From assembly GCA_018062765.1 (NCBI GenBank), contig JAGORR010000001.1:506485-570484 (forward strand): a DNA stretch of 64,000 nt, written 5' to 3'. This stretch comes from Minisyncoccota bacterium. GTDB taxonomy: Bacteria > Patescibacteriota > Minisyncoccia > Phycocordibacterales > Phycocordibacteraceae. A program made the translations under genes and the position numbers. This document shows, piece after piece, positions 16,942 through 51,488 of the stretch (the stretch's first letter is position 1; each line of letters opens with the position of its first letter). The notes under the pieces are model-generated. The model saw only the letters and a list, made by a program, of their open reading frames with translations, did no database searches and was not told the origin of the DNA.

Positions 16942-18362
16942 CGCCCCAGTATAGCAATTGCAGATTTTATACGAGAGAGGGATTCTTCCCTGCCAAGGAT
17001 ATATATGAGGGAAAATGGGTCAGGAGACTTCTCAGCACCGGAAAGCGCGTAGCGAAGCGGCCACAGGACGGCCCCCCTTCCCTCTTTATCGGCATAGACC
17101 ATAAGCTCGGTCTTTATACCCTCAATTGAATCAGGACCCTCGTACGCTTCGATAAGACGAGAAATTTCCGTGAGGTGCGTCGCGGTTACGCCTGGCGTCT
17201 CGGCTGGTTCCTTAGAAACGAGGAGTTTGGAGTCGAGCGTGGACGGTGCCGTAAACACGCAGGCGAGCTCTCCCGCGAGCATCTCGCGTGCTTCCTTAAA
17301 TGTCCGCGCGCGTTCCTTCAAGAGCGAAACCGACTTTCGTAACCGCTCATCGCCGGACAACTCAAACCCACCCTTTAGAACGTACTCCTCATCCGTAAGG
17401 CGGCGCATCCACTCCTGGTTGATATGCAGGAGCTTCTCTTCATCGAGCTTGCCGCCCGACTTCTGTACTTTCTCGATTTCGAACGCGTTAATAAGCTCAT
17501 CGATTGAAAGAATCTCTTCGTCTCCAGCAGGATGCCAGCCCACAAGCGCGAGAAAGTTTACGAACGCGTTTGGCAGGTACCCATCAGCACGGTACTCAAG
17601 GAGATCTTTCGCTCCGTCGCGCTTCGAGAGCTTTTTCTTACCGTCGGGGCCGAGTATCACCGGCATCGTTGCGATGGCGGGTGACGTCTTTCCAAGCGCG
17701 TCGTAGAGCGAAAGGAATTTTGGCGTCGAGGAAATAAACTCCTCTCCACGGATGACGTGCGTGATGCGCATCTCGATGTCATCGACGACGTGCGCGAAGT
17801 TGTAGGTTGGATAGCCATCCGCCTTGATGAGTATGAAGTCGTCGAGCGCCTCCTCGCCGGCAGTAAGCTCGCCGCGCGTAAGGTCGTTCCAGGTAAAACG
17901 CTTAATCTCAGGCGTCTTGAATCTAAGAGACCGAGTACCGTCCCACGTCAGAGTCACTTCCGGGCGATGGTCACGAAAAAGGAAGGGGCGATTCTCCGCT
18001 TCTGCCTGCTTACGGAACGCCTCAAGCTGCTCCTCGGTATAGGGGTCCGGATACGCATGTCCCCTGGCAACAAGCTCATCTGCATACTTTTTGTAGATAT
18101 CGAGGCGAGCAGACTGCACATAAGGACCATACGGCCCATCTTTGTCCGGTCCCTCATCCCAGTCGATGCCAAGCCAACGCAAGCTCTCCATGATGTGGCC
18201 AATGGAACCTTCTACCTCTCGCTCCTTGTCCGTGTCCTCGATGCGCAGAATAAACTGACCGCCGTGCTTTCTGGCATGGAGCCAGGCAAAAAGCGCAGTG
18301 CGCACACCACCCACATGCATCATGCCGGTTGGAGACGGTGCAAATCGGGTACGTACGGTCAT
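16938..18362 (-). CDS. gltX: glutamyl-tRNA synthetase
   Basis: RFAPSPTGMMHVGGVRTALFAW...LRIEDTD class I signature; ATGA overlap with murG. Confidence 0.9.
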   Translation of the reverse strand: MTVRTRFAPSPTGMMHVGGVRTALFAWLHARKHGGQFILRIEDTDKEREVEGSIGHIMESLRWLGIDWDEGPDKDGPYGPYVQSARLDIYKKYADELVARGHAYPDPYTEEQLEAFRKQAEAENRPFLFRDHRPEVTLTWDGTRSLRFKTPEIKRFTWNDLTRGELTAGEEALDDFILIKADGYPTYNFAHVVDDIEMRITHVIRGEEFISSTPKFLSLYDALGKTSPAIATMPVILGPDGKKKLSKRDGAKDLLEYRADGYLPNAFVNFLALVGWHPAGDEEILSIDELINAFEIEKVQKSGGKLDEEKLLHINQEWMRRLTDEEYVLKGGFELSGDERLRKSVSLLKERARTFKEAREMLAGELACVFTAPSTLDSKLLVSKEPAETPGVTATHLTEISRLIEAYEGPDSIEGIKTELMVYADKEGRGAVLWPLRYALSGAEKSPDPFSLIYILGREESLSRIKSAIAILGR

Positions 18363-19510
18363 ACAACAGGCTGAGGCTCGTGAGAAAGACCGATACGTAT
18401 CGCTTCCTCAGCAATAAGATCTGCAGCGTCAGCAGGCATGAATGCAGCCCCTGCTCTGCTCATCGACGCTGAGAGCGCTTGGTCCGCCGCGATGCGCTTC
18501 GCCTCGCTTGCAAGAAGGTGCGGCGTAAGATTCTGCTCTTCAAGCACGACCGCAGCACCCGTGCGCGCGTACGTGTATGCATTCGTGCGCTGGTCATGAC
18601 TTACGCTCTCCGGTATCGGGATGAGTATCGCCGGCTTTTGGAGCATAGAGAGTTCTGCGATAGAACCCGCACCTGCACGAGACACGATAACTGACGCAGC
18701 TGCGCCTGCATTCCTAAGAGATTCTAACGAGAGGAAGTCGAACACGTGGTAGCGACTCGCGTTTGGGTTATCCGCGAGTATCACTTTGGCAGTGCGCTCA
18801 ATCTCCGCAAACTCCGCACGACCTGTCTGATGGATAATGTTCAAGCTGCCTACCATATCAATAAGTCCGGAGAGAACCGCTTCATTAATGCGCGCAGAAC
18901 CCGATGAGCCGCCGAGTATAAGTACGGTGGGCACGGAGGCATCAAGTCCCAATTGAGCGCGAGCCGCATCAGGCGTTCCTCCCTTAAGGCCGCGGCGTAT
19001 CGGAATACCGGTGAGTGCAATTTTTGCCTGCGCTGACTTTGGAAACAGCGCTGCCGCGCCGGGGAACGATATCGCGATGCGGTACGCGTACTTGGCGGCC
19101 ATAAGATTCGCGCGCCCGGGCTTGCTGTCCGACTCATGCACGATGACCGGAATACGCCAGAAGCGTGCCGCCAAGGTGACTGGCACGCTCGCGAATCCAC
19201 CCTTGGAAATCACCACGTCCGGATAAATCTGATAGACAGTGACGAGGGCCTTAAATAGGCCGTAGAGTGTCACAAAAAGGTCTGCGTAGTTCTTCATCGA
19301 GAAATACCTGCGCCACTTCCCTGCCGGTACCGGGATGAATATCATTTCGGCCGCGAATAAGGACTGCTCGTCGTACGGCACTGGCGCAAGATAATAGAGG
19401 CGCGGCGTGATGAGCCTGTGTTCCCTGGCCTTCTCGTGCACACTCTCCGCAATCGCTATGAGCGGGTAGAAGTGCCCGCCCGTTCCCCCGCCGCAGAATA
19501 CGATTTTCAT
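18359..19510 (-). CDS. murG: undecaprenyldiphospho-muramoylpentapeptide beta-N-acetylglucosaminyltransferase MurG
   Basis: MKIVFCGGGTGGHFYP N-terminus and GT28 C-terminal domain. Confidence 0.85.
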   Translation of the reverse strand: MKIVFCGGGTGGHFYPLIAIAESVHEKAREHRLITPRLYYLAPVPYDEQSLFAAEMIFIPVPAGKWRRYFSMKNYADLFVTLYGLFKALVTVYQIYPDVVISKGGFASVPVTLAARFWRIPVIVHESDSKPGRANLMAAKYAYRIAISFPGAAALFPKSAQAKIALTGIPIRRGLKGGTPDAARAQLGLDASVPTVLILGGSSGSARINEAVLSGLIDMVGSLNIIHQTGRAEFAEIERTAKVILADNPNASRYHVFDFLSLESLRNAGAAASVIVSRAGAGSIAELSMLQKPAILIPIPESVSHDQRTNAYTYARTGAAVVLEEQNLTPHLLASEAKRIAADQALSASMSRAGAAFMPADAADLIAEEAIRIGLSHEPQPVV

Positions 19511-19574
19511 GTGGGTTTTGGCCCAATTGTACACCATGCTATCGTTTCCGAGGACCTAAAACAGGGAGGGTCAG

Positions 19575-19868
19575 ATGACCGACAAATCGCCATTTGAACG
19601 CATCCACGAGGTACTACGCAAGCCGCTCGACGCCATCACGTCCGAGGATCGCGCCGCCGTGGCCCGCTTTCTGGAAACGGAGGACCCAAGGGTGCAGAGG
19701 CATCCTGCCGATGCGGCATGCCCGGGCATAATCGACCGCATCGCTGAACCCATGCGGCGATTCGCCGCCGGCAAGGACGTCGACATCGACGATATGGTCG
19801 TCGCCATCGCCTTCTTCGCCCACCGGGCGTACAAGGAAGTGGAGGAACCTCCTCCCACCAAGCACTGA
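19575..19868 (+). CDS. hypothetical small protein
   Basis: GGGAGGG SD before the ATG; 97 aa; no recognised domain. Confidence 0.5.
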   Translation: MTDKSPFERIHEVLRKPLDAITSEDRAAVARFLETEDPRVQRHPADAACPGIIDRIAEPMRRFAAGKDVDIDDMVVAIAFFAHRAYKEVEEPPPTKH

Positions 19869-19903
19869 GCTCTCGGCCCGCGCTACGCGTGGGCCGCTTC
19901 TAT

Positions 19904-20398
19904 TTATCGCGTCACACTTATTTCTTCTTCAAGCTCAGCGGATGGCGCCGCTACGATGTACCGGCCGAATTCATCGACCTCGACGGTATAGCCGGTGTCG
20001 TAGTCCCCGGCATCGGTCCAATGCGCACCAGTCGCCGATGGGTCGAACGGGAGGCGCGCCGGGATATACGTTGGCGTAAGGCAGGACAGGTCTATCGTTG
20101 CGGATCCGTCTGATGCGATACGAAACATTGTACTCGTCGCTATCGACGGACATTCGTACGTTTCTCCTGCCGCAGTAAACTCTCCAGCGAACGTTCCCTT
20201 ATTCTCGGCGACACGTGCGCCTATCGCGTTCAATAGGGCAGTCACATTCGCGGTTCGCTCGGTGTTACGCGCCTGCGCGAATTGCCGTGACGGATTGAGT
20301 GCCACGAGAACCACGCCGGCCAGCACGGCAATAAGCCCGATGACGACAAGAATTTCTATTAACGTGAACCCTGCACGAGAATCTCTTGGATTCCTCAT
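19904..20398 (-). CDS. type IV pilin (prepilin N-terminal cleavage/methylation domain)
   Basis: RAG|FTLIEILVVIGLIAVLAGVV with Glu at +5; 164 aa from MRNPRDS. Confidence 0.75.
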   Translation of the reverse strand: MRNPRDSRAGFTLIEILVVIGLIAVLAGVVLVALNPSRQFAQARNTERTANVTALLNAIGARVAENKGTFAGEFTAAGETYECPSIATSTMFRIASDGSATIDLSCLTPTYIPARLPFDPSATGAHWTDAGDYDTGYTVEVDEFGRYIVAAPSAELEEEISVTR

Positions 20399-20455
20399 GG
20401 CGAGCCAGTTACTGGTATGAGCGCATGCTAGCACCAGATTACTGGAGCAAATCCG

Positions 20456-20857
20456 TCATTGGGCTGCGTTGGGGATTTCTTGCATGGTTACTACCTGTCT
20501 CGACTGACTATCTATAATTACTTCTAGCTCCGTCTGACGGTTCACGTGTGATATGTCGGACGAAACTCTGACTCTGATTCTTTTGGACTCGTCGGCGCTT
20601 TCTACTCGACCTATTCGACAATGTATATTCTCGTTTAGCGTGTAAGTATCGTCCCCAACGTACTTCGGTTCATACAGAAGCTTGAGCTGAACACTCTCTG
20701 CGCACGCACGCGCTGCCGCGCGCGACGCTTCCCTTCCCTCAAACGCAAGCATGCTCGCTCGTGCGTAGAATCCCGCGTAACTTGCGGTCGCAACCGCAGC
20801 AAGCAGAAACCCAGCTATGGTTACAACCGACACAAGCGCGGTAAATCCTCGGGTCAT
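20456..20857 (-). CDS. minor pseudopilin-like protein
   Basis: RG|FTALVSVVTIAGFLLAAV hydrophobic N-terminus lacking E5. Confidence 0.55.
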   Translation of the reverse strand: MTRGFTALVSVVTIAGFLLAAVATASYAGFYARASMLAFEGREASRAAARACAESVQLKLLYEPKYVGDDTYTLNENIHCRIGRVESADESKRIRVRVSSDISHVNRQTELEVIIDSQSRQVVTMQEIPNAAQ

Positions 20858-21276
20858 GGCAAATAGAATGACGTACTGAACTCTCTTCCACCAAGCATGA
20901 AGTACGCATGGAGCACCTCATCCTCATATGCAAACGCAGCCTCCGTTACGGAAAGCGTAGTAAGAGGGACACGCAGTCCTCCTCCCCTTCTTGTGTATAT
21001 GATCTCATCGTCGTGCTCGAACTCCACCGAATCAGAAAAATTCTCGATAGCCTCCAATCGTATTTCACTCACCGTTACCTCCTCGAAACCAGCCGACTGA
21101 TGTACGGCGGCGCGCAACTTAGCTAGCACGAACGCTCCCTCTTCCGCGGTGCGCAGCTCCGACTGATCCGTATCGGTACTTCTGCCAACTCCAAATGCAA
21201 GAGATGCACACCCGAGCATTAGGAGCGACAGTAGAGCGAGGTAGATGACTGCTTCGATGAGAGTGAATCCACGCAT
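20854..21276 (-). CDS. prepilin-type N-terminal cleavage/methylation domain protein
   Basis: MRG|FTLIEAVIYLALLSLL. Confidence 0.7.
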   Translation of the reverse strand: MRGFTLIEAVIYLALLSLLMLGCASLAFGVGRSTDTDQSELRTAEEGAFVLAKLRAAVHQSAGFEEVTVSEIRLEAIENFSDSVEFEHDDEIIYTRRGGGLRVPLTTLSVTEAAFAYEDEVLHAYFMLGGREFSTSFYLP

Positions 21277-21277
21277 A

Positions 21278-22660
21278 TCAATTCGACGGGAGCAAGCGCA
21301 GTATCGGATCTCGCGTCGATACCGCGTATACCCCGCCCGGAGCCACGTCTATCCCCCGAGGAGCAAGCCCCGGAATCGAGCGCGAGTCGATGCGCTCCAT
21401 ACTGCTTGGATTGCTTACATCATAGATTTCGAGCCGTCTTGTTGAGACACCTGAGGGCGTTGCCGCAAGATACGCTCGGTCGCCAACTACCCGTACGCCG
21501 GTAATGGACACCGAAGGTATCTCAGCAGAGCCAAGCTGCGTGAACGACTCGTCGTCTATGCGATAGGTGTACAACTCCGGACCGGCGGTATTCGACGCTC
21601 GCCCGAGATAGAGCATGTCAGCAATGACGGCGATACTTTCACCATCCTGGCTTCCGGGTAAATCGGTGCGGAGCATAGTGAGCTCCGCTAGGGTGCCCGT
21701 ATCCGATATCTGATAGACCGCAATCTCGCCCGTGTCGCGTGCCGTCGCAGCATACAGTCTGTCATCCTGTATCGAAAAATCATTCAACGTTATGTTTATC
21801 GAGTATCCTGCACCTATCTCTGTAGGATGTTCTGGATCTGCAACACTAAATACATGCAGTTCGGGCCCGGCAGTCTCGAGTGTTGAAATAAATACACGAC
21901 CATCGTAGTAGAAGATACGGTGGCCACCAGGCGCGGAACCGCTTGGTACCACACCCGCCAATGTCGATGTCGCGACAAGGAGCGGTTCTGACGCATCTGA
22001 AGCATCAATAACTGCCAGCTGCCCCGTAGAGGTCTCAAGCGCAGCAAAAATGATTGTCCGCATCCCCTCTTCCCCACCGGGGTAGTGAACGACATCGAGT
22101 GCCGCTGGACGTGCATGCAGAGAGAAACCGTTCGTAAATGCTACATACTCGACGTCCTCATGAATACGAAGATACGGCGGCTTATCCGTGCCGATATAAA
22201 TGTGCGAATCGAGTGTGTCTATAGCGCTTCCCTCTTCCCCGGCAACACTCCCGTAGTCATGCGGTATGCCAAGATCCGAATACGACCTGTACAAACAATC
22301 GCCGCCCAGTCGCATACTTTCCTCTACATCCGCCTTGTACACGCGGCGCTCAAACATATAACGTTCGCGGGACACGGACGCTTCGAAACTCGACATGCAT
22401 GCCGTGAGAGCAGACTGAGTCATGGTGGTCACGTACGTCGTGCCGTTCAGTTCGACACGCTCTGCAATATCTGCCTCTGAAGACATCGCTTTAGCGAGCG
22501 CATAATCCGCTATCGCGAGCATGTCCGCATGGCGGAGCGTCGCTTCCGCCGCGTCGTTGACCCCTGCTTCGATGAGAAGGATTGCACCCGCTGAGAGCGC
22601 GAACACGGAGAACGCGATGAGTATCTCCACCGTGATGCTGCCTCGCGACTGGCGCGCCAT
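21278..22660 (-). CDS. large pseudopilin-like protein with beta-propeller (LVIVD-like repeats)
   Basis: N-terminus RGS|ITVEILIAFSVFAL (Glu at +5) then about 400 aa of repeated ...YxxDxxLYxA/...IYDVSNP... blades; start trimmed to MARQSRG. Confidence 0.55.
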   Translation of the reverse strand: MARQSRGSITVEILIAFSVFALSAGAILLIEAGVNDAAEATLRHADMLAIADYALAKAMSSEADIAERVELNGTTYVTTMTQSALTACMSSFEASVSRERYMFERRVYKADVEESMRLGGDCLYRSYSDLGIPHDYGSVAGEEGSAIDTLDSHIYIGTDKPPYLRIHEDVEYVAFTNGFSLHARPAALDVVHYPGGEEGMRTIIFAALETSTGQLAVIDASDASEPLLVATSTLAGVVPSGSAPGGHRIFYYDGRVFISTLETAGPELHVFSVADPEHPTEIGAGYSINITLNDFSIQDDRLYAATARDTGEIAVYQISDTGTLAELTMLRTDLPGSQDGESIAVIADMLYLGRASNTAGPELYTYRIDDESFTQLGSAEIPSVSITGVRVVGDRAYLAATPSGVSTRRLEIYDVSNPSSMERIDSRSIPGLAPRGIDVAPGGVYAVSTRDPILRLLPSN

Positions 22661-22704
22661 TTGCCAGAGTATATCGTGTGGCGCATAGTCATCTCGGATA
22701 AGAA

Positions 22705-23262
22705 ATGGAGGTCGACATGGTCGCGAACATCGCACAGATTGAGCTTTTCCACGTGGGAGGGCAGAAGACGTTCGGAGAGCTCTCGAGGGAGATTCTCGCG
22801 CGCGTACACGAGGACCTTTCGGCCGGCGACTTCGACCGGCCGACATCCATCAAGACCTGCTTCCGGATTTATGACTGGAGCGGCGACATGACCCGCTACG
22901 CTCTGGACCTTGAGTCGATGCCGAGCCTTGTCGACGACTATGAGGCATACACATCGGCCCCGACGCGCCTTGGCCGATGGCTCGCCAGTCGTCGGGAACG
23001 ACGAAATTCGCGCCGGCGCGCGAATCTGAAACAGATGATGACCGCAGACGCGGGCAGGCTGGTGCGAGAAGCCATAGATGCCAGCGATTCTGTTGCCATA
23101 GAAGTCGCTGAGCATCGCTATCGGATGATGCGTCGCGACGAGGCGACCGAAATGCGCTCGCGTGCGACCCATTACTCGCACGCATGGCTCTTTGTCTTCG
23201 AGCCGAATGAGCTCCTTGCAGACCGCAACGAAATCGTCGGTTCGATAGCTCTCGTACTTTAG
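22705..23262 (+). CDS. hypothetical protein
   Basis: 185 aa (alternative start 22717 with GGAGG SD); terminator follows. Confidence 0.5.
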   Translation: MEVDMVANIAQIELFHVGGQKTFGELSREILARVHEDLSAGDFDRPTSIKTCFRIYDWSGDMTRYALDLESMPSLVDDYEAYTSAPTRLGRWLASRRERRNSRRRANLKQMMTADAGRLVREAIDASDSVAIEVAEHRYRMMRRDEATEMRSRATHYSHAWLFVFEPNELLADRNEIVGSIALVL

Positions 23263-23264
23263 CG

Positions 23265-23298
23265 AAGCGGCCCCATCAGGGGCCGCTTTCACTTTCTT
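23265..23298 (+). terminator. rho-independent terminator
   Basis: gcggcccc-atca-ggggccgc then tttcactttctt. Confidence 0.75.
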
Positions 23299-23857
23299 AA
23301 TACTCGATACGTATCGGGAACGACAGGGATCGGTCACGCTCCGGCTCACCGGATGCGTTGCTGTTTTTGATGATAAGGGTTGCGTCGCCAATGAACCCTG
23401 CAGGTATCGTAACGGCCGCAGTGAACGGCACGAATTCCTCCGTCATCCACTCCCCTTCTGCTTCTGCGTATCCGTTCGCTATCACGTTCCCGTCAGCGTC
23501 CTCGACCTCTATCGGAAACGATGCCTCGAAGTACCAAGTGCCGCGTGCCTCACCCTTCACAATGAGCGGCTTCCCGGTAACCGCACCCGGAGTCGGTGTC
23601 GAGACCGTGATGAGGTCCGGCGACGCATTTACGTAGGTCGGCTCGATAACAATTTCCTCTGCAAACGTGCGCCCATCAGGCGTCCGACACTGGCGCGGAT
23701 AACTTTCCATTACGGGATACCCTGCTTCTGCACAGTCGGCAAAGGAGAGGATATCTGCGTCTGGAGTCGCCGGAGGTATCTCCCCCTGCATAAGCCATAT
23801 CCCCGATCCGACAAGAATAAGGATGAGCCCGATCACCCAGAGGTATGAAGTATTCAT
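23297..23857 (-). CDS. membrane-anchored Gmad2-like immunoglobulin-domain protein
   Basis: TM anchor then C-terminal ...WYFEASFPIEVEDADGNVIANGYAEAEGEWMTEEFVPF resembling the Gmad2 Ig-like domain. Confidence 0.5.
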   Translation of the reverse strand: MNTSYLWVIGLILILVGSGIWLMQGEIPPATPDADILSFADCAEAGYPVMESYPRQCRTPDGRTFAEEIVIEPTYVNASPDLITVSTPTPGAVTGKPLIVKGEARGTWYFEASFPIEVEDADGNVIANGYAEAEGEWMTEEFVPFTAAVTIPAGFIGDATLIIKNSNASGEPERDRSLSFPIRIEY

Positions 23858-23895
23858 ACTGATAATCGTACGCCCGGGATTCGCATATGGGAAGG

Positions 23896-25182
23896 CTAGC
23901 GCCGTTTCCACTCCTTGTCCTGACGAACGAGGTGCTTCACGTCCTCCGGATTCTCAAGAAGACCCTCAATAAGGCGTTCGAGGCGGATATTGTTCTGCGA
24001 GCCCTTGGCGAGCACGACATCGCCCTTCTCGAGCATCGGCAGTATCGCTTCCGCGGCATCCTTTGCGGTTGCGCATGAGGTAAGACGATCTTCGGTCATA
24101 CCGCCTTCCTTCGCGCCATCAAGCAAGGTACGGGCTCGTATGCCAACTGCAAACAAATGATCGACTACTTTTGCCGCGAGCCTCCCGACGCGCTCATGCT
24201 CGGCAAGCGAGTAGCGACCAAGTTCGAGCATGTCGCCTAAGACCGCAATACGTCTCTTGGCTGGCATGTGGGAAAGTGTCGAGAGCGCTTCTTCTGCCGC
24301 GACCGGCGAAGAGTTATAGGAATCATCTATCAAAGTCGATCCATTTTTCCCGAGGAAGAGACGCGCACGGCCTGGTGGCGGCGTGTAAGAGGCGAGCCCT
24401 TTTAGGGCTTCAGCAGGTGCGATATCGAGCGCGCGTGCGGTTAAGAGCGCTGCGGCGGCGGCAAGCAGTGCCGGCTTCCCCACTACGCCAAGAACTCGAA
24501 GCTCGTGGCTTACACCGTCCATACGTATCGCCGCGCGCATCCCCGTCGGCACGCCTTTCTCGATAAGAATTTCCGCATCCTCGATGCGCGCGTCCGCGCG
24601 TTCTGCGAAACCGAACGTCATCACTCGTGCCTGTAGTCGCTTTGCATACGCAATCGCATACGGATCCTCGGCGTTAATGATGAGCGGACTCCCGGGCGCG
24701 AGTCCATAAGCCGGAACGAATTCCTCTTCTCGCACCGCCTCAGGGCTCGGATACGCTTCGACATGGACGGGAATCTCCGGAAGCTTAGTGACCACAACCG
24801 CGTCCGGCGTCGCTATCTTCAGTATCTTCGCGAGGTCGCCTGGACGGTCCGCGCCAACCTCAAGCACGAGCACCTTCGGGTAGTGATTGGGTAAAAGGAG
24901 TAGCGTGATGCCCTCAAGGATGACCTTTCCCCAGGACAGCGTATTAGACCAAGGATTCTCTGCACCGATGACCGTAAGCGGTACACCAAACTCGGTGTTA
25001 TAGCTCTTTTCGCTCGCGCGCGCGTACGTCTTGGTGGAGAACGCGGAGCGAAGCGCATCCTTGGTCGACGTCTTTCCAACGCTTCCGGTGACCATAATGA
25101 TGGTCGGGCGATATTTGTGAATGATGAGACGCGCGAGCTGCGCAATGGAGAAGGTGACGATACGCTTGAGAAAATTTTTCAT
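23896..25182 (-). CDS. murF: UDP-N-acetylmuramoyl-tripeptide--D-alanyl-D-alanine ligase MurF
   Basis: Mur ligase motifs GSVGKTSTK, DDSYNSSP; 428 aa. Confidence 0.85.
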   Translation of the reverse strand: MKNFLKRIVTFSIAQLARLIIHKYRPTIIMVTGSVGKTSTKDALRSAFSTKTYARASEKSYNTEFGVPLTVIGAENPWSNTLSWGKVILEGITLLLLPNHYPKVLVLEVGADRPGDLAKILKIATPDAVVVTKLPEIPVHVEAYPSPEAVREEEFVPAYGLAPGSPLIINAEDPYAIAYAKRLQARVMTFGFAERADARIEDAEILIEKGVPTGMRAAIRMDGVSHELRVLGVVGKPALLAAAAALLTARALDIAPAEALKGLASYTPPPGRARLFLGKNGSTLIDDSYNSSPVAAEEALSTLSHMPAKRRIAVLGDMLELGRYSLAEHERVGRLAAKVVDHLFAVGIRARTLLDGAKEGGMTEDRLTSCATAKDAAEAILPMLEKGDVVLAKGSQNNIRLERLIEGLLENPEDVKHLVRQDKEWKRR

Positions 25183-25208
25183 ACACTACATGCCGAGCAC
25201 TTGTACCA

Positions 25209-26948
25209 TCATACCGGTTCATCACTCACTGCAACCGGGTCGCGATCGGGCGGAACTGCATAATAATTTGCAAGGAACTTCGTGAGTTCGATAAATGATG
25301 AGGTCAACGTTTCTGACGCGTACTGCACACCCTTAGGTTCTCGAGTATAAAGAAGAATGATAAAGCGCGGTTCGTATGCCGGGAAATATCCAAAGAACGA
25401 GTGGAAATATTTGTCGGCGTAATACCCGCCCTCGGGGTTCGCTATCTGCGCGGTGCCGGTCTTCGCGGCGACACTCATCTCAGGAATAGAGGCGTCACCG
25501 TTAAGGAGTGCGGTATCGACCACGTGAGCCAGCATCGCTGAGACGGTGGCGGTCGAAGCACTCTTCATAACAGGCTGCGGCGACCCCCAGGATAGCTCCT
25601 TTTCTATCCCGCTCTCGAGCTTTACCGCGGTCACCAAATGCGGCGTAACAATCATGCCATCGTTCGCGAGTACTCCTAAGGCGCGAATCATCTCCATAGG
25701 CGTCTGCGCGATACCCTGGCCGAATGAGGCGGTTGCAAAGTTGATGTCTCTATCGACCGAGAGATTCGCAAGCGTACCGCGAATCTCGACGGGCAGGTCT
25801 ATGCCGGTCTCGGTATCCATTCCGAGCCTCGTAAAGTAATCCTTCATGCGTCCGTGGCCGAGCTCTCCTGCAATGAACGCGGCACCCATGTTCAAAGACT
25901 GTGACAGAACCTCCTGCATGGGGACCGAGCCACGCGCCTTAAGGTCAAAGTTACAAAAGGTCTTCGTGTTGAGAGTCATGCATCCCTGGTCGTTGTAGTA
26001 CGTGCCGGGAGTAATGACACCCGAGTCGATACCAGATGCCATCGTGAGTGCCTTTACGATAGAGCCGAACTCGTAGCGTTTCTCCACCAATGGATTTCCG
26101 AATACTGACGCGTCAGCATCCTTAAAGTCGTTAGGGTCAAACGAGGGGACGACGTCGAGCGCTATGATTTCCCCGGTCTTGGGGTCCATGATGATGCCTC
26201 CGGTTTCTGCGGAGGAGTACCGCGTATTGATGTCGATAAGCATCTCATCGAGCTTCTGGAGAACCACTGGCTCGATAGAGGTCACGAGATCCCCAGCTCG
26301 AGCGTCGCGTGCGTCTGCGACAACATCACCAACATTCGCGAACAGTTCTGCGAAGAAGTTCCCGAAGAGACCTGATCCTTGTCTTGAAAGTGAATCTTCG
26401 TAGTAACGCTCGAGTCCGTACCTGCCAACGACAGCATCGCTCTCATCGTGTCCGATGAAGCCGATGGTTTGCGCTGCAGCGTTCGCAGCCGGATACGTTC
26501 GCCATCGACTTCGTATAACCAAGACTCCATCCATTTCCGCTTCTGCAATCGCCGCTCCCGCCTCCTCTGGCACCTCCTCGACGATGACCTCATACGGGTC
26601 ATCCAACTTCGCTGCTTTCCGCATGAAATCCTCGCGATCGACTTCTACGTGACCGGCGACTAGCGCATACGCCGCCTCAGGGTCCTCAAGGACCTTGGGA
26701 TTTAGTGCCACGATGAAGCCGGTTGTAAGCGTCGCGGCTGAGATAAGGGTCCCATCTTTGCGGGTGAAGTAAATTGTGCCGCGATCGTAGAGCTGACTAT
26801 TGGCATTCGCAAACTGGCGCTCAGCGCGTAGCGCATACTCTTCGCCCTTGAGAATCTGAACAAAGTAGAGCCGTACGATAAGGAGCAACGCGAACGCGGC
26901 GAGTATGAAAAAGACGAGACGTAGACGGGACCGGAGGGCGTGCCGCAT
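25209..26948 (-). CDS. ftsI: peptidoglycan D,D-transpeptidase FtsI (class B PBP)
   Basis: N-terminal TM, PBP dimerisation domain and transpeptidase domain (SIVK, SSN, KTGT motifs). Confidence 0.85.
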   Translation of the reverse strand: MRHALRSRLRLVFFILAAFALLLIVRLYFVQILKGEEYALRAERQFANANSQLYDRGTIYFTRKDGTLISAATLTTGFIVALNPKVLEDPEAAYALVAGHVEVDREDFMRKAAKLDDPYEVIVEEVPEEAGAAIAEAEMDGVLVIRSRWRTYPAANAAAQTIGFIGHDESDAVVGRYGLERYYEDSLSRQGSGLFGNFFAELFANVGDVVADARDARAGDLVTSIEPVVLQKLDEMLIDINTRYSSAETGGIIMDPKTGEIIALDVVPSFDPNDFKDADASVFGNPLVEKRYEFGSIVKALTMASGIDSGVITPGTYYNDQGCMTLNTKTFCNFDLKARGSVPMQEVLSQSLNMGAAFIAGELGHGRMKDYFTRLGMDTETGIDLPVEIRGTLANLSVDRDINFATASFGQGIAQTPMEMIRALGVLANDGMIVTPHLVTAVKLESGIEKELSWGSPQPVMKSASTATVSAMLAHVVDTALLNGDASIPEMSVAAKTGTAQIANPEGGYYADKYFHSFFGYFPAYEPRFIILLYTREPKGVQYASETLTSSFIELTKFLANYYAVPPDRDPVAVSDEPV

Positions 26949-26961
26949 ACGATACTTGTAG

Positions 26962-27246
26962 CTACGGCGCCAGAAGCGTCACAGACGGCGCCGGCAACTC
27001 CTTGGCGTACCGCTTTGCCGCAGGATGCGTGAGTCCGTGAGCGGATGGATCGGACTTTGCGACCGCATCCACGGCAGAGAAGTACTTCACCTCAAGCGCA
27101 GCTATAGACGCCTCCGTATCGTGTATCGCTTCGCGCAGGTCGGATTCGAGTGCGGCGAAGTAGACGGTTGAAATAATGAGCGCAATGTACACCGCAACGA
27201 GCGCGAAAAATGATCCCCGCAGCATTGGTACCAATCGACTAGGCAT
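26962..27246 (-). CDS. ftsL: FtsL-like cell division protein
   Basis: small single-TM protein with coiled coil between rsmH and ftsI; start taken at MPSRLVPM. Confidence 0.5.
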   Translation of the reverse strand: MPSRLVPMLRGSFFALVAVYIALIISTVYFAALESDLREAIHDTEASIAALEVKYFSAVDAVAKSDPSAHGLTHPAAKRYAKELPAPSVTLLAP

Positions 27247-28207
27247 GGTTGGTGTCGAGCTTCGCGAACACGCGCAACTTCGCACTTCGCGCGCGCGGGT
27301 TTGCGGCTATTTCCTCGTCTGAGGGCGTCAGCACTTTCTTCGTAAGCACGATGCCTGCTCCCGCCTGCTCAAGGTCACGGAACAAATTCTTAACGACACG
27401 GTCCTCAATACTATGAAAAGTAATAACCGAGATCCGACCACCCGGGGCAAGGAGCGCAGCGGCCGCACGCAATCCCTCATCTATAGCGCCGAGTTCATCG
27501 TTGACCGCTATCCGGAGCGCCTGGAAGGTGCGCGTCGCCGGATGTAGGCGGCCCTTCTTATAAGCAGCCGGCACACTCTCCTCTATTACGCGCACTAAGT
27601 CGCCGGTCGTGAGTATGCGCTCCCTCGCGCGCGCAAGAACGATGCCTTTGGCGATGCGCCGCGCGTAGCGCTCTTCTCCGTACAGGAAGATGAGTTCAGA
27701 AAGCTCCTCCTCGCTCGCGCTTCCCACCAATTCTGCGGCGCTCTTCCCTGCCTCCGGTTCCCCGTACGTCATTAAAAGAGGTTCATCCGCACGGAAGGAG
27801 AAGCCTTTACCGCTTTCTAACTGATACCCGCTCCAGCCAAGATCGAAGACCGCGCGGTCTATAGAAGTGACCTCGAGGCGCGCAGCAACGCGCGCGAGAT
27901 TACGGAAATTATCGGCGACCAGATGTACGCGCGGCCGATCAGGGCGCTTATCAGCAGCAACGGTCTCTCGTGCCCTCTCAAGCGCATCCGCGTCGAGGTC
28001 GATACCAATAAGGACGCCATCGCTCCCAAGCATGGCGAGCAGTCGTTCGAAGTGCCCTGCGCCGCCCACGGTTCCATCGACGACCGTGTCGCCGGTGCGC
28101 ACCTCTAGCATGTCGACGGCCTCCGATAGGAGGACCGTCGTGTGTTTCGCGCCTGGCGCCCCTGTAGACGCGCTCGCATATGCCGGATTCATCACAGTCG
28201 TTTCCAT
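27239..28207 (-). CDS. rsmH: 16S rRNA (cytosine1402-N4)-methyltransferase RsmH
   Basis: SAM-binding motifs DGTVGGAGH; conserved position after mraZ. Confidence 0.9.
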   Translation of the reverse strand: METTVMNPAYASASTGAPGAKHTTVLLSEAVDMLEVRTGDTVVDGTVGGAGHFERLLAMLGSDGVLIGIDLDADALERARETVAADKRPDRPRVHLVADNFRNLARVAARLEVTSIDRAVFDLGWSGYQLESGKGFSFRADEPLLMTYGEPEAGKSAAELVGSASEEELSELIFLYGEERYARRIAKGIVLARARERILTTGDLVRVIEESVPAAYKKGRLHPATRTFQALRIAVNDELGAIDEGLRAAAALLAPGGRISVITFHSIEDRVVKNLFRDLEQAGAGIVLTKKVLTPSDEEIAANPRARSAKLRVFAKLDTNHA

Positions 28208-34926: not shown

Positions 34927-35720
34927 GGAAGTGCTACGGGCGGATACACGATGACCGAGGAAATTGAGAAGGGATTCGTGATGGGATCTATGTATACCGT
35001 TTTCGAAGGATCTGCCGGGTCCGTATCGACTCGACGTATTACCCCTATCGGCAGGGAGCCCGCCGCTGCTACATATATAGAGTCGCCCTCGAGGACTGTT
35101 GCCTCGCGCGGCGCGTTTGCGGTAAAGGCGCCTGCCCCTGCTCCAGTCAAAGCGAGCGCGATGCGTGCCTCCCCTGCCCAGGCCTCCGTGAGGACGCCTG
35201 GCGCAGACAGAAGCAAGACGCGAGCCGACGCACGGGTCACGGAGGCAACACGACCGAGCGGGATACCTCCTGCTCCCGTTACAAGTCCCCCAACACCAAC
35301 TCCCGCATCACTGCCCTGGTCTATCACCAAGGCATCATAGGGGCTTTGTGGTGGGCGGGCGATAACATATGCGACAACACCTTTTGCCGGTTCCGTACGC
35401 GAGCCAAGGAGCGTTTCGAGGTCAGCGACACGCGACGCAAGCACCCTGTTCTGCTCCTCCATCGCCGTTGCGTACCGCTTGGCTTCCGTGAGCTTTCGCG
35501 AGAGCTCTGCAGGGCCCGTAACCGCTGCGCCTCCAGCAGCGATGCCAGCAATCGCCATATCGGAAACATAGGCGACGGGTGCCAAGACACCAGAGACGGC
35601 ACCCGGAACGACAAGCCGCACACCTATGATGGCAACGACGAGCACGACGAGCACGACGCCCGTGCGCGAAATCTTCGACGGCAGAATGGCGTTACGCCTC
35701 CCGAAGACTGACTTCTTCAT
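34923..35720 (-). CDS. mreC: rod shape-determining protein MreC
   Basis: N-terminal TM, coiled coil and beta-rich C-domain; conserved context. Confidence 0.8.
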   Translation of the reverse strand: MKKSVFGRRNAILPSKISRTGVVLVVLVVAIIGVRLVVPGAVSGVLAPVAYVSDMAIAGIAAGGAAVTGPAELSRKLTEAKRYATAMEEQNRVLASRVADLETLLGSRTEPAKGVVAYVIARPPQSPYDALVIDQGSDAGVGVGGLVTGAGGIPLGRVASVTRASARVLLLSAPGVLTEAWAGEARIALALTGAGAGAFTANAPREATVLEGDSIYVAAAGSLPIGVIRRVDTDPADPSKTVYIDPITNPFSISSVIVYPPVALP

Positions 35721-36747
35721 CGATGAATGTGTTCGCCCACGGCCGCGGGTCCTCGGTCACGATGCCTGTCCCACGGACGACCGCCGTGAGAGGTTCTGGT
35801 GCCACGTGCACCGGAACGCCGAGCATCTTCGAGAGCAGTTGCGGTAAGCCCCGCAAAAGCGCTCCGCCACCGAATACCACCACCCCGCGCTCAAGCACAT
35901 CCGAAAGCAATTCCGGCGGCGTTTTCTCGATAACTTCCTTCATGGCTTCCATCAAGGTATCAAGAGATGGTTCCAAGGCCTCGCGCACATGCGCGTCTGT
36001 CAACGTAATCTCGCGCGGCAATCCAGTCGCAAGGTCTCGTCCACGCACCGCCTTCTCAAGCGCGTCGTTCATCGGCAATACCGCTCCAATGCCTATCTTC
36101 ACCTCTTCTGCAGTGCGTTCGCCAATCAAGAGTTGAAATTCGCTCCGTACGAAATCAATGATGTTCTCGTTGAAACGATCGCCCGCGACCTGAGAGCTCT
36201 TGGAGGAAACGGTGCCGCCTAGCGCCAAGACCGCAATATCGGTCGTGCCGCCCCCGATGTCGAGCACCATGGTGCCCACCGCTTCCTGTATGGGAAGCTT
36301 CACGCCTATCGCGCCCGCCACCGGCTCCTCCATGATGTACACCTCTCGCGCGCCTGCGGTCAATGCCGCATCCCGTACCGCGCGACTCTCCACGTTCGTG
36401 ACGCCGGTAGGTACACCAACAACAACGCGCGGTCCAAAAAGGCGCGAACGCCCGCCCTGCGCCTTATTGATGAGGTACGCAAGCAACTCCTCGGTAACCT
36501 CAAAGTCAGAAATGACACCGTGCGATAACGGCCGTACCGCCCGTATATGCGACGGCGTCTTCCCGAGCATGCGTTTCGCTTCAGTACCTACAGCGACCAC
36601 CTGCCCCGTTTTGTCGTTCACGGCGACGACCGAAGGTTCCGCTATAACAATGCCTCGACCGCGCACGTAGACGAGCGTATTTGCGGTACCCAGGTCTATT
36701 CCGATATCACTCGAGAAAAGTGAGCTCTTTGAGAAACGCCGTACCAT
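35692..36747 (-). CDS. mreB: rod shape-determining protein MreB
   Basis: actin-fold motifs DLGTANTLVY, DIGGGTTD. Confidence 0.9.
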   Translation of the reverse strand: MVRRFSKSSLFSSDIGIDLGTANTLVYVRGRGIVIAEPSVVAVNDKTGQVVAVGTEAKRMLGKTPSHIRAVRPLSHGVISDFEVTEELLAYLINKAQGGRSRLFGPRVVVGVPTGVTNVESRAVRDAALTAGAREVYIMEEPVAGAIGVKLPIQEAVGTMVLDIGGGTTDIAVLALGGTVSSKSSQVAGDRFNENIIDFVRSEFQLLIGERTAEEVKIGIGAVLPMNDALEKAVRGRDLATGLPREITLTDAHVREALEPSLDTLMEAMKEVIEKTPPELLSDVLERGVVVFGGGALLRGLPQLLSKMLGVPVHVAPEPLTAVVRGTGIVTEDPRPWANTFIDEEVSLREA

Positions 36748-43938: not shown

Positions 43939-43984
43939 GTCCCCATGATACGCGCGCGGCTTCGCTGACGCAAAAAATGGTAAG

Positions 43985-46157: not shown

Positions 46158-46189
46158 AGCGTAGAGCGTCCAGTGCTACAGTGGGGGCG

Positions 46190-51267: not shown

Positions 51268-51347
51268 TGCGTTTGACTCCCGTAAAGAGCAGCGGGCCTA
51301 CTCGCCCACAGCTGCCGATACTAGCGCCATTCGCTCCTTTTATCCAG

Positions 51348-51376
51348 TTGGCATCAGGGTCGTTTTTGGGTACACT
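51348..51376 (+). promoter_or_regulatory. sigma70-like promoter TTGGCA-17-TACACT for the tRNA
   Basis: lies 32 nt upstream of the tRNA 5' end. Confidence 0.45.
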
Positions 51377-51408
51377 CGCCTATGACCGTCCTCGGACGGT
51401 CATGACAT

Positions 51409-51480
51409 TCCGCGATAGCTCAATGGTAGAGCAGCGCCCTGTTAAGGCGTTGGTTGTAGGTTCGAGTCCTACTCGCGGAG
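51409..51480 (+). tRNA. tRNA-Asn (anticodon GTT)
   Basis: manual cloverleaf: acceptor tccgcga/tcgcgga, D arm gctc-aatggta-gagc, anticodon stem gcgcc/ggcgt with loop cTGTTaa, T arm gtagg-ttcgagt-cctac; CCA not encoded. Confidence 0.85.
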
Positions 51481-51488
51481 CAAAGACG

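What the first reader, a model, noticed from the sequence alone, without database searches (positions are those of the whole stretch)
19904..22660. Four-gene type IV pilin/pseudopilin operon ending in a 461-aa pilin-like protein fused to a beta-propeller
Four consecutive minus-strand genes carry class III signal/prepilin N-termini (G|FTLIE...). The first and largest (21278-22660) has a degenerate prepilin N-terminus, RGS|ITVEILIAF, with Ser at +1 and Glu at +5. It is followed by about 400 aa of repeated LVIVD-like beta-propeller blades (...IYDVSNPSS...). Pilin-anchored propellers are candidate tip adhesins, functionally analogous to PilY1. No assembly ATPase, platform or prepilin peptidase is in the window, so the cluster is a pilin cassette separated from the machinery. 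In streamlined or episymbiotic bacteria such pili mediate host attachment and DNA uptake, so the propeller protein is a candidate host-recognition determinant.
Basis: partly seen in the sequence, partly recalled or inferred. Interest (0 to 1): 0.55.

Follow-up and report, generated by a model that had tools for sequence, protein, structure and literature searches.

The report
Pilus-tip gene cassette with propeller pilin
Four adjacent genes in an ultrasmall Paceibacterota (CPR) bacterium encode type IV pilus subunits, one carrying a seven-bladed propeller that probably sits at the pilus tip as an adhesin; this is a further example of a known design, not a new kind of system.

Summary
Window 19904-22660 (minus strand) carries four tightly packed pilin genes:
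- g1, 460 aa, G|SITVE;
- g2, 140 aa, G|FTLIE;
- g3, 133 aa, G|FTALV, no Glu5;
- g4, 164 aa, G|FTLIE.

AlphaFold models g1 (pLDDT 84) as a 52-residue pilin helix, a 4-strand pilin sheet and a 7-bladed LVIVD propeller. It models g3 (pLDDT 93) as a pilin lollipop. Gly-1 and Glu+5 of g1 are invariant in 81 diverse relatives.

The g1 family is large, with at least 464 50%-identity clusters at E<=1e-30. In four more distant relatives the g1 gene follows an ATPase, a platform protein and a pilin, and one to three pilin genes follow it. In the window's clade (five genomes) g1-g4 sit without machinery between murF and murG in the cell-division cluster. The window holds no ATPase, platform protein or prepilin peptidase.

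g4 is as conserved as housekeeping genes, so it is the likely major pilin. g1-g3 diverge fast, so they are the likely tip complex.

The closest precedents are the modular pilins of Streptococcus sanguinis (PilA/B/C) and the propeller pilin PilX2 of Saccharibacteria TM7x. A 2021 survey already lists pilin+IPR013211 architectures. Adhesion is inferred, not shown. The acidic proteins argue against DNA capture.

Verdict: a new member of a known kind, of moderate interest.

The parts
21278..22660 (-). g1: modular minor pilin, 460 aa. Leader M1-G7, mature N-terminus SITVE with Glu5. NCBI MBP6860532.1, 'hypothetical protein KBC38_03170'.
   Evidence: ORF and sequence. AF2 model pLDDT 84, pTM 0.82. 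Gly-1 and Glu+5 are invariant in 81 relatives. The family has at least 464 representative clusters at E<=1e-30. NCBI name.
22286..22639 (-). g1 pilin module, residues 8-125. It comprises the hydrophobic alpha1N, a long alpha1 helix (residues 9-60) and a 4-strand antiparallel sheet (residues 66-110). The pair Cys88-Cys122 closes the module.
   Evidence: DSSP of the AF2 model. C88 and C122 are invariant in alignment A5. The N-terminus gives a weak ComGE match of 19 bits against a cut-off of 49.
21281..22285 (-). g1 C-terminal seven-bladed LVIVD-type beta-propeller, residues ~126-460. It is strongly acidic (net charge -26).
   Evidence: The AF2 model shows 7 x 4 strands. The best Foldseek PDB matches are 7-bladed WD40 propellers (E 3e-9, TM 0.64). 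Pfam LVIVD scores 20.8 bits here and matches 62 of 81 relatives. Charge.
20854..21276 (-). g2: minor pilin, 140 aa, MRG|FTLIE. It is weakly ComGF/GspJ-like. NCBI MBP6860533.1.
   Evidence: N_methyl 25.2 bits. ComGF 23.8 bits over positions 2-108 of the 139-position model, below the cut-off of 80; GspJ 16 bits. An ortholog follows g1 in the eight relatives whose downstream genes were seen.
20456..20857 (-). g3: minor pilin without Glu5, 133 aa, MTRG|FTALV. It is the candidate first-in, tip-most subunit. The deposited NCBI record does not annotate it.
   Evidence: AF2 pLDDT 93, with a helix at residues 3-62 and a beta-sheet. 331 homologs were found. In an alignment of 63 of them Gly-1, C52 and C80 are invariant; the consensus at +5 is Ile, and none of the five sequences read directly has Glu there. 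The top Foldseek hit is S. sanguinis minor pilin PilA, 7o5y, at E 0.21, which is not significant. Annotation gap.
19904..20398 (-). g4: candidate major pilin, 164 aa, RAG|FTLIE. NCBI MBP6860534.1, 'type II secretion system protein'.
   Evidence: N_methyl 30 bits. Identity to orthologs is 59-70%, against 25-47% for g1-g3 and 60-66% for MurF, MurG, FtsI and GltX. The top PDB profile hits are major pilins: Geobacter pilin 6e-7, S. sanguinis PilE1 8e-4, PpdD, Thermus PilA.
19874..19896 (.). GC-rich hairpin immediately after the g4 stop codon. It is the probable bidirectional terminator closing the cassette.
   Evidence: Terminator scan: 10-pair stem with 9 GC pairs. Sequence.

Best explanation
The four genes encode the filament subunits of a type IV pilus of a Paceibacterota (CPR) bacterium. 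They form a cassette of three fast-evolving minor pilins (g1, g2, g3) and one slowly evolving pilin (g4, the likely major subunit).

Proposed mechanism, inferred by homology with the tip complexes of type IV filaments:
1. A prepilin peptidase encoded elsewhere cleaves each leader after the conserved Gly.
2. g3 lacks Glu5, so it needs no partner above it. It enters first and ends up outermost.
3. g1 and g2 pack beneath g3 through their alpha1 helices. Together the three prime assembly.
4. g4 then polymerises under them, driven by an ATPase and platform protein encoded elsewhere in the genome.
5. This places the seven-bladed LVIVD propeller of g1, joined to its small pilin module, at the pilus tip.
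6. The propeller most likely binds a surface ligand on a host cell or substrate, probably a glycan or a protein. It would act as an adhesin rather than as a DNA receptor.

In more distant relatives the g1 homologue sits directly behind the ATPase, platform and one further pilin gene. One to three pilin genes follow it, the full g2-g4 set in two of the four contexts seen. In the window's clade the subunit cassette sits alone between murF and murG.

What is shown: the gene structure, the prepilin motifs and their conservation, the predicted folds, the family size, and the synteny in relatives.

What is inferred: processing, the order of assembly, tip location, the identity of g4 as major pilin, and the ligand.
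For: Prepilin motifs:
- N_methyl hits for g2 and g4.
- Gly-1 and Glu+5 of g1 are invariant in 81 relatives that share only ~29% mean column identity.
- The only three such motifs in 64 kb lie in this cassette.

Predicted folds:
- g1 is a 52-residue helix, a 4-strand sheet and a 7-bladed propeller (pLDDT 84).
- g3 is a pilin lollipop (pLDDT 93).
- The g3 family (63 sequences aligned) has an invariant Gly-1 and a consensus Ile at +5; none of the five sequences read directly has Glu there. The cap subunits GspK and S. sanguinis PilA also lack Glu5 (PMC9934059).

Link to machinery in relatives:
- Four independent contexts were found. In all four the g1 homologue directly follows T2SSE ATPase - T2SSF platform - pilin and is followed by a g2-sized pilin gene. 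The full g2-g3-g4 set follows in two of them (L005 and the P0050 contig).
- Two further contigs, identified only by matching contig lengths in the two hit tables, seem to carry both an ATPase and a g3 homolog.

Rates of change:
- g4 is 59-70% identical to its orthologs, the same as housekeeping proteins.
- g1-g3 are 25-47% identical.
- The best PDB profile matches of g4 are major pilins.

Precedents for a modular pilin at the tip acting as an adhesin:
- S. sanguinis PilB and PilC (PMC8179133 and PMC9934059).
- TM7x PilX2, a minor pilin with a heptabladed propeller. It is encoded in a pilin-only locus away from its machinery, and it is required for host binding but not for filament formation or competence (PMC11623550).

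Charge: the proteins are acidic. g1 has net charge -31, its propeller -26, and g2 -12. This argues against electrostatic DNA capture.
Against: - No assembly ATPase, platform protein or prepilin peptidase is in the window. I could not search the rest of the 638-kb contig. A look for a co-located ATPase among the top 120 hits found none.
- Matches of g1, g2 and g3 to named minor-pilin families are all below the curated cut-offs.
- No ligand is known for LVIVD propellers. No solved structure is related in sequence.
- The propeller blades are more conserved than the pilin module. A variable host-specificity determinant would not behave this way. Part of that conservation is simply the repeat motif itself.
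- The conserved position inside the cell-division cluster is not explained by an adhesion role.
Confidence: 0.6

Rival explanations
1. The cassette forms the tip of a competence (Com-like) pilus. Its main job would be to capture extracellular DNA for a bacterium that cannot make its own nucleotides. The propeller would assist or regulate DNA capture.
For: - In relatives the operon is minimal and comG-like in order: a short ~400-aa ATPase, a platform protein and then a run of pilins. No PilT, PilM, PilN or PilO lies nearby.
- The weak family matches follow the comG order. The g1 N-terminus matches ComGE and g2 matches ComGF. g3 resembles ComGG in size and position.
- Patescibacteria are naturally competent and lack nucleotide synthesis (PMC11623550).
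Against: - All ComG scores are far below the cut-offs: 19 against 49, and 24 against 80.
- The relatives' ATPases score higher on GspE and PilB (471 and 438 bits) than on ComGA (243 bits, cut-off 300).
- g1, g2 and g4 are strongly acidic, and the window's g3 is neutral. DNA capture in S. sanguinis relies on electropositive patches on ComGD and ComGF.
- In TM7x the pilus that carries the propeller pilin is dispensable for transformation.
Confidence: 0.2
2. The prepilin-type N-termini serve only as membrane anchors or build a short non-filamentous surface assembly, like the archaeal bindosome or a pseudopilus. In that case the complex acts in cell-envelope growth or division, as its conserved place between murF and murG might suggest.
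For: - The cassette lies between murF and murG in five genomes whose g1 proteins are only 36-47% identical where measured.
- It occupies the slot where mraY-murD-ftsW usually sit, and no mraY is in the window.
- No machinery genes are nearby.
- The ATPases of relatives give a very weak match to the bindosome ATPase model.
Against: - More distant family members sit in pilus operons far from murF and murG. The dcw position is therefore probably secondary.
- The invariance of Glu5 points to filament-type packing of alpha1 helices.
- g4 looks like a standard shaft pilin.
- The cassette is bounded by a hairpin and by opposite-strand genes. This suggests it is a separate transcription unit from murG and, in this genome, from murF.
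- No precedent is known to me.
Confidence: 0.07
3. The genes encode a type II secretion-like pseudopilus that pushes proteins through the cell wall. g1 would act as the substrate-contacting tip.
For: - NCBI names g4 'type II secretion system protein'.
- The best, though sub-threshold, matches are to GspH/GspG for g4, GspJ for g2, and GspE/GspF for the relatives' machinery.
Against: - These names reflect only the shared N-terminal helix and the generic ATPase and platform folds. All scores are below the curated cut-offs.
- No secretin or outer-membrane component was seen in any context.
- To my knowledge CPR bacteria of this group have no outer membrane.
- A 335-aa propeller on the tip is not a T2SS feature.
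Confidence: 0.05

Closest known systems
PilX2 of the thin type IV pilus (T4P-2) of Nanosynbacter lyticus TM7x (Saccharibacteria, CPR); PMC11623550
   Same: [quoted passage not shown]
- Its signal peptide is non-canonical.
- It is encoded with the major pilin and small minor pilins in a pilin-only locus, away from the ATPase and platform locus.
- The organism is an ultrasmall CPR episymbiont.
- It is shown to be needed for host binding but not for filament extrusion or competence.
   Different: - The PilX2 propeller is described as RCC1-repeat, whereas g1 is LVIVD-type.
- The organisms belong to different CPR classes.
- PilX2 was not predicted to have a PilD-type signal. g1 has a conserved Gly-1 and Glu+5.
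- I could not obtain the PilX2 sequence, so homology is untested.
Modular type IV pilins PilB (vWA module) and PilC (lectin module), with the Glu5-less partner PilA, of Streptococcus sanguinis; PMC8179133 and PMC9934059
   Same: - A small pilin module is joined by a short linker to a bulky functional module.
- The genes lie in one operon with a small pilin that lacks Glu5.
- Together the proteins are modelled as a tip complex that primes assembly and presents adhesive modules.
- The best Foldseek PDB hit of g3 is PilA.
- Dataset S1 of the 2021 survey already lists N_methyl (IPR012902) + IPR013211 architectures, including CPR proteins. From memory, IPR013211 is the LVIVD repeat.
   Different: - The grafted module here is a beta-propeller of unknown ligand, not a vWA or lectin domain.
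- The g3-PilA match is not statistically significant (E 0.21).
- There is no sequence homology outside alpha1.
- The LVIVD pilins have never been studied experimentally.
PilY1/PilC tip adhesin of type IVa pili (Pseudomonas, Neisseria, Myxococcus)
   Same: A seven-bladed beta-propeller is presented at the pilus tip by a complex of minor pilins and serves in adhesion. This is a functional analogy (PMC8179133 discussion).
   Different: - PilY1 is not a pilin. It docks non-covalently onto the minor-pilin complex, whereas g1 carries its own pilin module.
- No PilY1-family Pfam match was found for g1, and none appears among the five families matched by its relatives.
- The propeller belongs to a different sequence family.
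Com pilus (T4dP) operon comGA-GB-GC-GD-GE-GF-GG of monoderm bacteria; PMC12153270
   Same: - In relatives of g1 the order is ATPase - platform - pilin - g1, followed by one to three further pilin genes (the full g2-g3-g4 set in two of four contexts).
- The sub-threshold matches of g1 and g2 to ComGE and ComGF follow the comG order.
- One subunit lacks Glu5.
- The minor pilins cap the filament.
   Different: - All ComG model scores are below their cut-offs.
- The ATPases are closer to GspE and PilB.
- No Com minor pilin carries a propeller.
- The proteins here are acidic, whereas DNA capture uses electropositive ComGD and ComGF surfaces.

Membership tests
Type IV pilins (type 4 filament subunits with a class III signal peptide) | Short charged leader ending in Gly(-1), followed by a hydrophobic segment of about 20 residues | tested here: met
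   All four proteins have it. Gly-1 is invariant in 81 g1 relatives and 63 g3 relatives. N_methyl is above its cut-off for g2 and g4.
Type IV pilins (type 4 filament subunits with a class III signal peptide) | Glu at position +5 of the mature protein | tested here: met
   g1, g2 and g4 have Glu5, and it is invariant in the g1 family. g3 lacks it: the family consensus at +5 is Ile and none of the five sequences read directly has Glu. The known cap subunits GspK and S. sanguinis PilA also lack it.
Type IV pilins (type 4 filament subunits with a class III signal peptide) | Lollipop fold: an alpha1 helix of about 50 residues packed on an antiparallel beta-sheet | tested here: met
   AF2 of g1 gives a helix at 9-60 and a 4-strand sheet at 66-110. 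AF2 of g3 gives a helix at 3-62 and a sheet. g2 and g4 were not modelled.
Type IV pilins (type 4 filament subunits with a class III signal peptide) | Cleavage and N-methylation by a prepilin peptidase, and assembly by an ATPase and platform encoded in the same genome | not testable with these tools
   None of these genes is in the 64-kb window. The rest of the 637,994-bp contig could not be read. Relatives have the ATPase and platform adjacent.
Modular pilins (Raynaud et al. 2021) | An N-terminal pilin module joined to an extra, non-pilin domain | tested here: met
   The AF2 model shows a pilin module at residues 8-125 and a propeller at ~126-460. At family level, N_methyl matches 19 of 81 relatives and LVIVD 62 of 81. 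The IPR012902-IPR013211 architecture is listed in Dataset S1.
LVIVD-repeat beta-propellers (Pfam PF08309) | Score above the Pfam gathering threshold, and a propeller fold | tested here: met
   The window protein scores 20.8 bits against a cut-off of 20.2, which is marginal, with one repeat. 62 of 81 relatives match, best E 3.5e-20. The AF2 propeller has 7 blades, and the Foldseek hits are 7-bladed propellers.
PilY1/PilC tip adhesins | A PilY1-type C-terminal propeller domain in a non-pilin protein | tested here: not met
   g1 gives no PilY1-family Pfam match, and none is among the five families its relatives match. g1 has a bona fide pilin module. The resemblance is functional only.
Com pilus minor pilins ComGE / ComGF / ComGG (NCBIfam equivalogs) | Score above the curated cut-off of the equivalog model | tested here: not met
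   g1 scores 19.2 on ComGE against a cut-off of 49. g2 scores 23.8 on ComGF against 80. g3 has no hit. Relatives' ATPases score 243 on ComGA against 300, and score higher on GspE and PilB.
Core HIJK minor-pilin set of type 4 filaments | Four co-encoded minor pilins, one of them (K) lacking Glu5, with recognisable H, I and J folds | tested here: inconclusive
   The co-encoded set and the Glu5-less subunit are present. The matches to GspJ (g2) and to GspH (g4 and the relatives' upstream pilin) are sub-threshold. PDB profile searches for g2 and g3 were empty or non-significant.
TM7x PilX2-type propeller pilins | Sequence or structure homology to PilX2 | not tested
Only the published description could be compared: a heptabladed propeller with RCC1 repeats, encoded in a pilin-only locus.

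The most novel reading that the evidence does not exclude
In this Paceibacterota clade the pilus-subunit cassette has replaced mraY-murD-ftsW between murF and murG and has stayed there across deep divergence. The position may be functional. The pilin complex could be built at the division site together with the wall-synthesis machinery. It might act as a wall-spanning device that positions new poles on the host, or it might take part in envelope growth itself. This would be a use of type IV pilins not described so far.
Probability: 0.06. Interest if true: 0.75.

Novelty: new member of a known kind. Interest (0 to 1): 0.4.

Why it matters
CPR/Patescibacteria are a large part of bacterial diversity. 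All cultivated members live attached to host cells, yet how they recognise hosts is largely unknown. Only one propeller-bearing pilin, TM7x PilX2, has been tied to host binding.

This analysis defines a large, unnamed family of pilins that carry an LVIVD propeller. At least 464 50%-identity clusters were found. The members checked were mostly annotated 'hypothetical', and no related structure has been solved. The analysis also defines the family's usual operon partners. This gives a concrete candidate for the adhesive tip of Paceibacterota pili and a set of constructs for binding studies.

It also shows two annotation traps. The Glu5-less subunit g3 is missing from the deposited record, and one gene caller trimmed the g1 leader.

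Tried and rejected
- Profile searches of PDB sequences were empty for g1 and g3, and for g2 matched only the shared N-terminal helix.
- The broad family alignment A5 was too diverse for the locus finder. The narrow alignment A1 found only two species-representative genomes, one of them already known. The window's own genome is not in that collection.
- I tried to show machinery in the same genome. I searched with a relative's ATPase and looked for hits whose longest contig is 637,994 bp. None was among the 120 hits listed out of about 8,000. This is inconclusive, not negative.
- I first read the conserved polar residues of the propeller (Q214, E267, E312, E362, R408) as a possible ligand site. 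I rejected that reading. They occupy the same position just before strand C in successive blades, so they are the repeat signature itself.
- The longer ORF start of g1 at 22846 is rejected. Its extension is Arg-rich and absent in homologs, and that exact product is not in the protein collection.
- The GTG start at V11 used by one gene caller (P0001) is rejected, because the leader and Gly-1 are conserved.
- A literature search found no paper that studies LVIVD repeats in pilins.


Full report
**1. What is in the sequence**

Window 19904-22660 carries four consecutive ORFs on the minus strand.

| Gene | Coordinates | Length | N-terminus |
|---|---|---|---|
| g1 | 21278-22660 | 460 aa | MARQSRG\|SITVEILIAF |
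| g2 | 20854-21276 | 140 aa | MRG\|FTLIE |
| g3 | 20456-20857 | 133 aa | MTRG\|FTALV |
| g4 | 19904-20398 | 164 aa | MRNPRDSRAG\|FTLIE |

- For g4, the ATG at 20398 is the most likely start. Orthologs are 162-175 aa.
- The g1 stop and the g2 start are 1 nt apart. g2 and g3 overlap in ATGA. g3 and g4 are 57 nt apart.
- A 10-pair GC-rich hairpin at 19874-19896 follows g4.
- Pfam N_methyl is above its threshold for g2 (25.2 bits) and g4 (30 bits).
- A six-frame scan of the whole window for a Gly-x4-Glu prepilin motif followed by a hydrophobic stretch found three sites. All three are in this cassette.

**2. The large protein g1**

An alignment of g1 with 11 close homologs gave an AlphaFold2 model with mean pLDDT 84 and pTM 0.82. 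The model has three parts:
- an uninterrupted helix at residues 9-60;
- a four-strand antiparallel sheet at residues 66-110;
- 28 strands arranged as seven four-stranded blades, from about residue 130 to 456.

The first two parts form the classical pilin lollipop. Foldseek against the PDB returns only generic seven-bladed WD40 or Kelch-type propellers (best E 3e-9, target TM 0.64). No solved structure is related by sequence.

Pfam LVIVD is marginal on this protein (20.8 bits against 20.2). It matches 62 of 81 family members, best E 3.5e-20. N_methyl matches 19 of the 81.

The 'degenerate' N-terminus is a derived form of a canonical one. Most relatives begin G|FSTLE(L/I)LIA. Across 81 sequences with only 29% mean column identity, the invariant positions are Met1, Gly-1, Glu+5, Cys88, Cys122 and Gly353. 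[quoted passage not shown] I read this pair as the usual C-terminal pilin disulfide; that is an inference.

Invariance of Gly-1 and Glu+5 is what selection for prepilin-peptidase cleavage and filament packing would produce.

**3. Size and taxonomy of the family**

The word-indexed search found only 13 relatives, all from Minisyncoccia or Paceibacterota MAGs. An exhaustive profile search of 1.84 billion cluster representatives found far more:
- 7,325 hits at E<=1e-3. These include unrelated LVIVD proteins.
- 464 hits at E<=1e-30. Among the 150 hits listed (all with E<=1e-54), most are 450-520 aa long and align from the prepilin segment to the C-terminus.

Of the 14 family members whose source names were looked up, seven carry no name. 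Six are named 'hypothetical protein', 'Tfp pilus assembly protein PilE' or 'prepilin-type N-terminal cleavage/methylation domain-containing protein'.

The window's own proteins belong to a Ca. Paceibacterota MAG with a 637,994-bp contig:
- g1 is MBP6860532.1, 'hypothetical protein KBC38_03170'.
- g2 is MBP6860533.1.
- g4 is MBP6860534.1, 'type II secretion system protein'.
- g3 has no accession, so the deposited annotation missed it.

**4. Genomic context**

In the window the cassette lies inside the division and cell-wall cluster. The order is:
- rsmH/mraW (27239-28207);
- ftsI (25209-26948);
- murF (23896-25182);
- a Gmad2 Ig-like protein (23297-23911);
- an opposite-strand 185-aa ORF;
- g1-g4;
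- an opposite-strand 97-aa ORF;
- murG (18359-19537);
- gltX;
- an M23 peptidase.

The order murF-(Gmad2)-g1-g2-g3-g4-murG-gltX recurs in four other genomes. Their g1 proteins are 36-47% identical to the window's where I measured it: L001/L006, L003, L007 and the P0012 contig.

No ATPase, platform protein or prepilin peptidase is in the window. Pfam on all ORFs of at least 150 aa found none. tblastn with relatives' machinery gave E>0.3.

More distant family members, 27-33% identical in g1 where measured, sit in a different and informative context.

| Context | Gene order (sizes in aa) |
|---|---|
| L005 | T2SSE ATPase (430) - T2SSF platform (365) - pilin (147) - g1 homolog (475) - 151 - 132 - 162 |
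| P0050 contig | 395 - 361 - 157 - 488 - 142 - 142 - 164 |
| L004 | same head of the operon, g1 homolog, then a g2-like gene |
| L008 | same head of the operon, g1 homolog, then a g2-like gene |

Two further contigs seem to carry both an ATPase and a g3 homolog. I infer this only from matching contig lengths in the two hit tables.

In these four contexts g1 is thus part of a pilus operon, with the full g2-g3-g4 set behind it in two of them. I infer that in the window's clade the subunit cassette was separated from its motor.

The relatives' ATPases match GspE and PilB best (471 and 438 bits, covering only the C-terminal part of those models). They match ComGA less well (243 bits against a cut-off of 300). 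The pilin upstream of g1 in relatives is weakly GspH-like. The window has no counterpart of that pilin.

**5. The three smaller proteins**

g4:
- It is 59-70% identical to its orthologs in L001, L003, L004, L005 and L007.
- That equals the 60-66% seen for MurF, MurG, FtsI and GltX between the window and L007.
- g1-g3 are only 25-47% identical.
- The best PDB profile matches of g4 are major pilins: Geobacter pilin 6e-7, S. sanguinis PilE1 8e-4, PpdD and Thermus PilA. The match runs through the alpha1 helix.
- I therefore take g4 as the shaft subunit. This is an inference.

g2:
- It gives sub-threshold matches to ComGF (23.8 bits over most of the model) and GspJ.

g3:
- It has 331 detectable homologs.
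- In an alignment of 63 of them, Gly-1, Cys52 and Cys80 are invariant. The consensus at +5 is Ile, and none of the five sequences I read directly has Glu there.
- Its AlphaFold2 model is very confident (pLDDT 93). It shows a helix at 3-62 and a beta-sheet.
- Its top Foldseek PDB hit is the S. sanguinis minor pilin PilA (7o5y). At E 0.21 this is only a hint.

A pilin without Glu5 is the hallmark of the subunit that enters first and caps the tip. GspK and S. sanguinis PilA are the known examples (PMC9934059).

**6. Mechanism proposed**

By analogy with the HIJK, ComGD-G and PilABC tip complexes (PMC9934059, PMC12153270), I propose this sequence:
1. g3, g1 and g2 assemble in the membrane through their alpha1 helices and prime polymerisation.
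2. g4 then polymerises beneath them.
3. The g1 propeller ends up exposed at the tip.

Bulky modular pilins can be accommodated only at the tip (PMC8179133).

The nearest experimental case is TM7x PilX2 (PMC11623550):
- It is a minor pilin with a heptabladed propeller and a non-canonical signal peptide.
- It is encoded with the major pilin PilA2 in a pilin-only locus, separate from its PilB2/PilC2 locus.
- Deleting it halves host binding but leaves filaments and competence intact.

For the window's cassette, adhesion is favoured over DNA capture by charge. Net charges are -31 for g1 (pI 4.5), -26 for its propeller, -12 for g2, 0 for g3 and -8 for g4. Com pili bind DNA through electropositive patches.

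One result tempers the 'host-specificity determinant' idea. Blades 2-5 of the propeller (residues 211-358) are more conserved than the globular pilin module, both within the clade and across the family. Much of that conservation is the repeat signature before strand C of each blade. I therefore do not read it as a ligand site.

**7. Comparison with known systems and novelty**

The cassette passes the sequence and fold tests for type IV pilins and for modular pilins. It fails the curated thresholds for ComGE, ComGF and ComGG. It is not a PilY1 homolog.

The architecture N_methyl + IPR013211 is already tabulated in Dataset S1 of Raynaud et al. 2021, where the motif is called 'of unknown function'. 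One entry is an 860-aa Falkowbacteria protein with 12 copies. The equation IPR013211 = LVIVD rests on my memory. No paper in the library studies LVIVD repeats in pilins.

The finding is therefore a new, uncharacterised member of a known kind. What I found no description of is the size and coherence of this ~480-aa family, its fixed operon partners, and the relocation of the cassette into the dcw cluster in one Paceibacterota clade.

**8. Limits**

- I could not read the rest of the source genome, so the presence of the motor and the peptidase is unverified.
- Only two structures could be predicted, and multimers could not be modelled.
- Two structure libraries were unavailable.
- Function is inferred entirely from architecture and analogy.

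Noticed in passing
window 20456-20857 (-): g3, the Glu5-less pilin, has no protein accession in the deposited MAG. g2 and g4 carry consecutive accessions (MBP6860533.1 and MBP6860534.1). Yet g3 has 331 homologs and a pLDDT-93 pilin model. It is a missed gene in the public annotation.
   Followed up: yes
window 22705-23262 (+), with hairpin 23264-23289: A 185-aa ORF on the opposite strand (NCBI KBC38_03165, hypothetical, no Pfam family) sits between the Gmad2 gene and g1. Its start is only 44 nt from the g1 start. An 11-pair hairpin separates it from the Gmad2 gene. In relative L003 the Gmad2 gene and g1 are 30 nt apart, with nothing between them, so this looks like a lineage-specific insertion.
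   Followed up: partly
window 19575-19868 (+): A 97-aa ORF on the opposite strand (hypothetical, accession MBP6860535.1) lies between g4 and murG. Relative L001 has a 100-aa Usg-family gene on the opposite strand at the same spot. L003 and the P0012 contig have nothing there.
   Followed up: partly
window 18359-28207: The dcw cluster here runs rsmH - (small ORF) - ftsI - murF - ... - murG, without mraY, murD or ftsW between murF and murG. No MraY-like sequence exists anywhere in the 64 kb (tblastn). In relative L005 mraY-ftsW lie about 8 kb downstream of the pilus operon. That hints at a rearrangement that exchanged the two segments.
   Followed up: partly
window 23297-23911 (-): A 204-aa protein has an N-terminal membrane segment and a Gmad2 Ig-like domain (E 1.8e-12). 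Its ORF overlaps the end of murF and lies directly upstream of the cassette. It is also present in L003, and a Gmad2 gene lies next to the pilus operon on the P0050 contig. This may be a recurring neighbour of the pilin genes.
   Followed up: no
window 21278-22660 (-); protein P0001: One public gene call for g1 (P0001, 450 aa) starts at the GTG of Val11. That removes the leader and Gly-1. Such truncated calls hide the prepilin signal from domain searches.
   Followed up: yes
window 35692-36747 (-) and 42925-44439 (-): There are two MreB paralogs. The ORF of the second is listed from a TTG start and runs about 170 residues upstream of the actin-like domain. MreC and a PBP2-type transpeptidase lie nearby.
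   Followed up: no
window 46181-48007 (+), 51267-52943 (+), 45360-46157 (+), 53382-54149 (-): These large ORFs (608, 558, 265 and 255 aa) have no Pfam family. They lie next to surface-type proteins with PKD, TIG, PG-binding and Big_13 domains (40901-42172 and 56776-57921). They may be further cell-surface proteins of unknown function.
   Followed up: no
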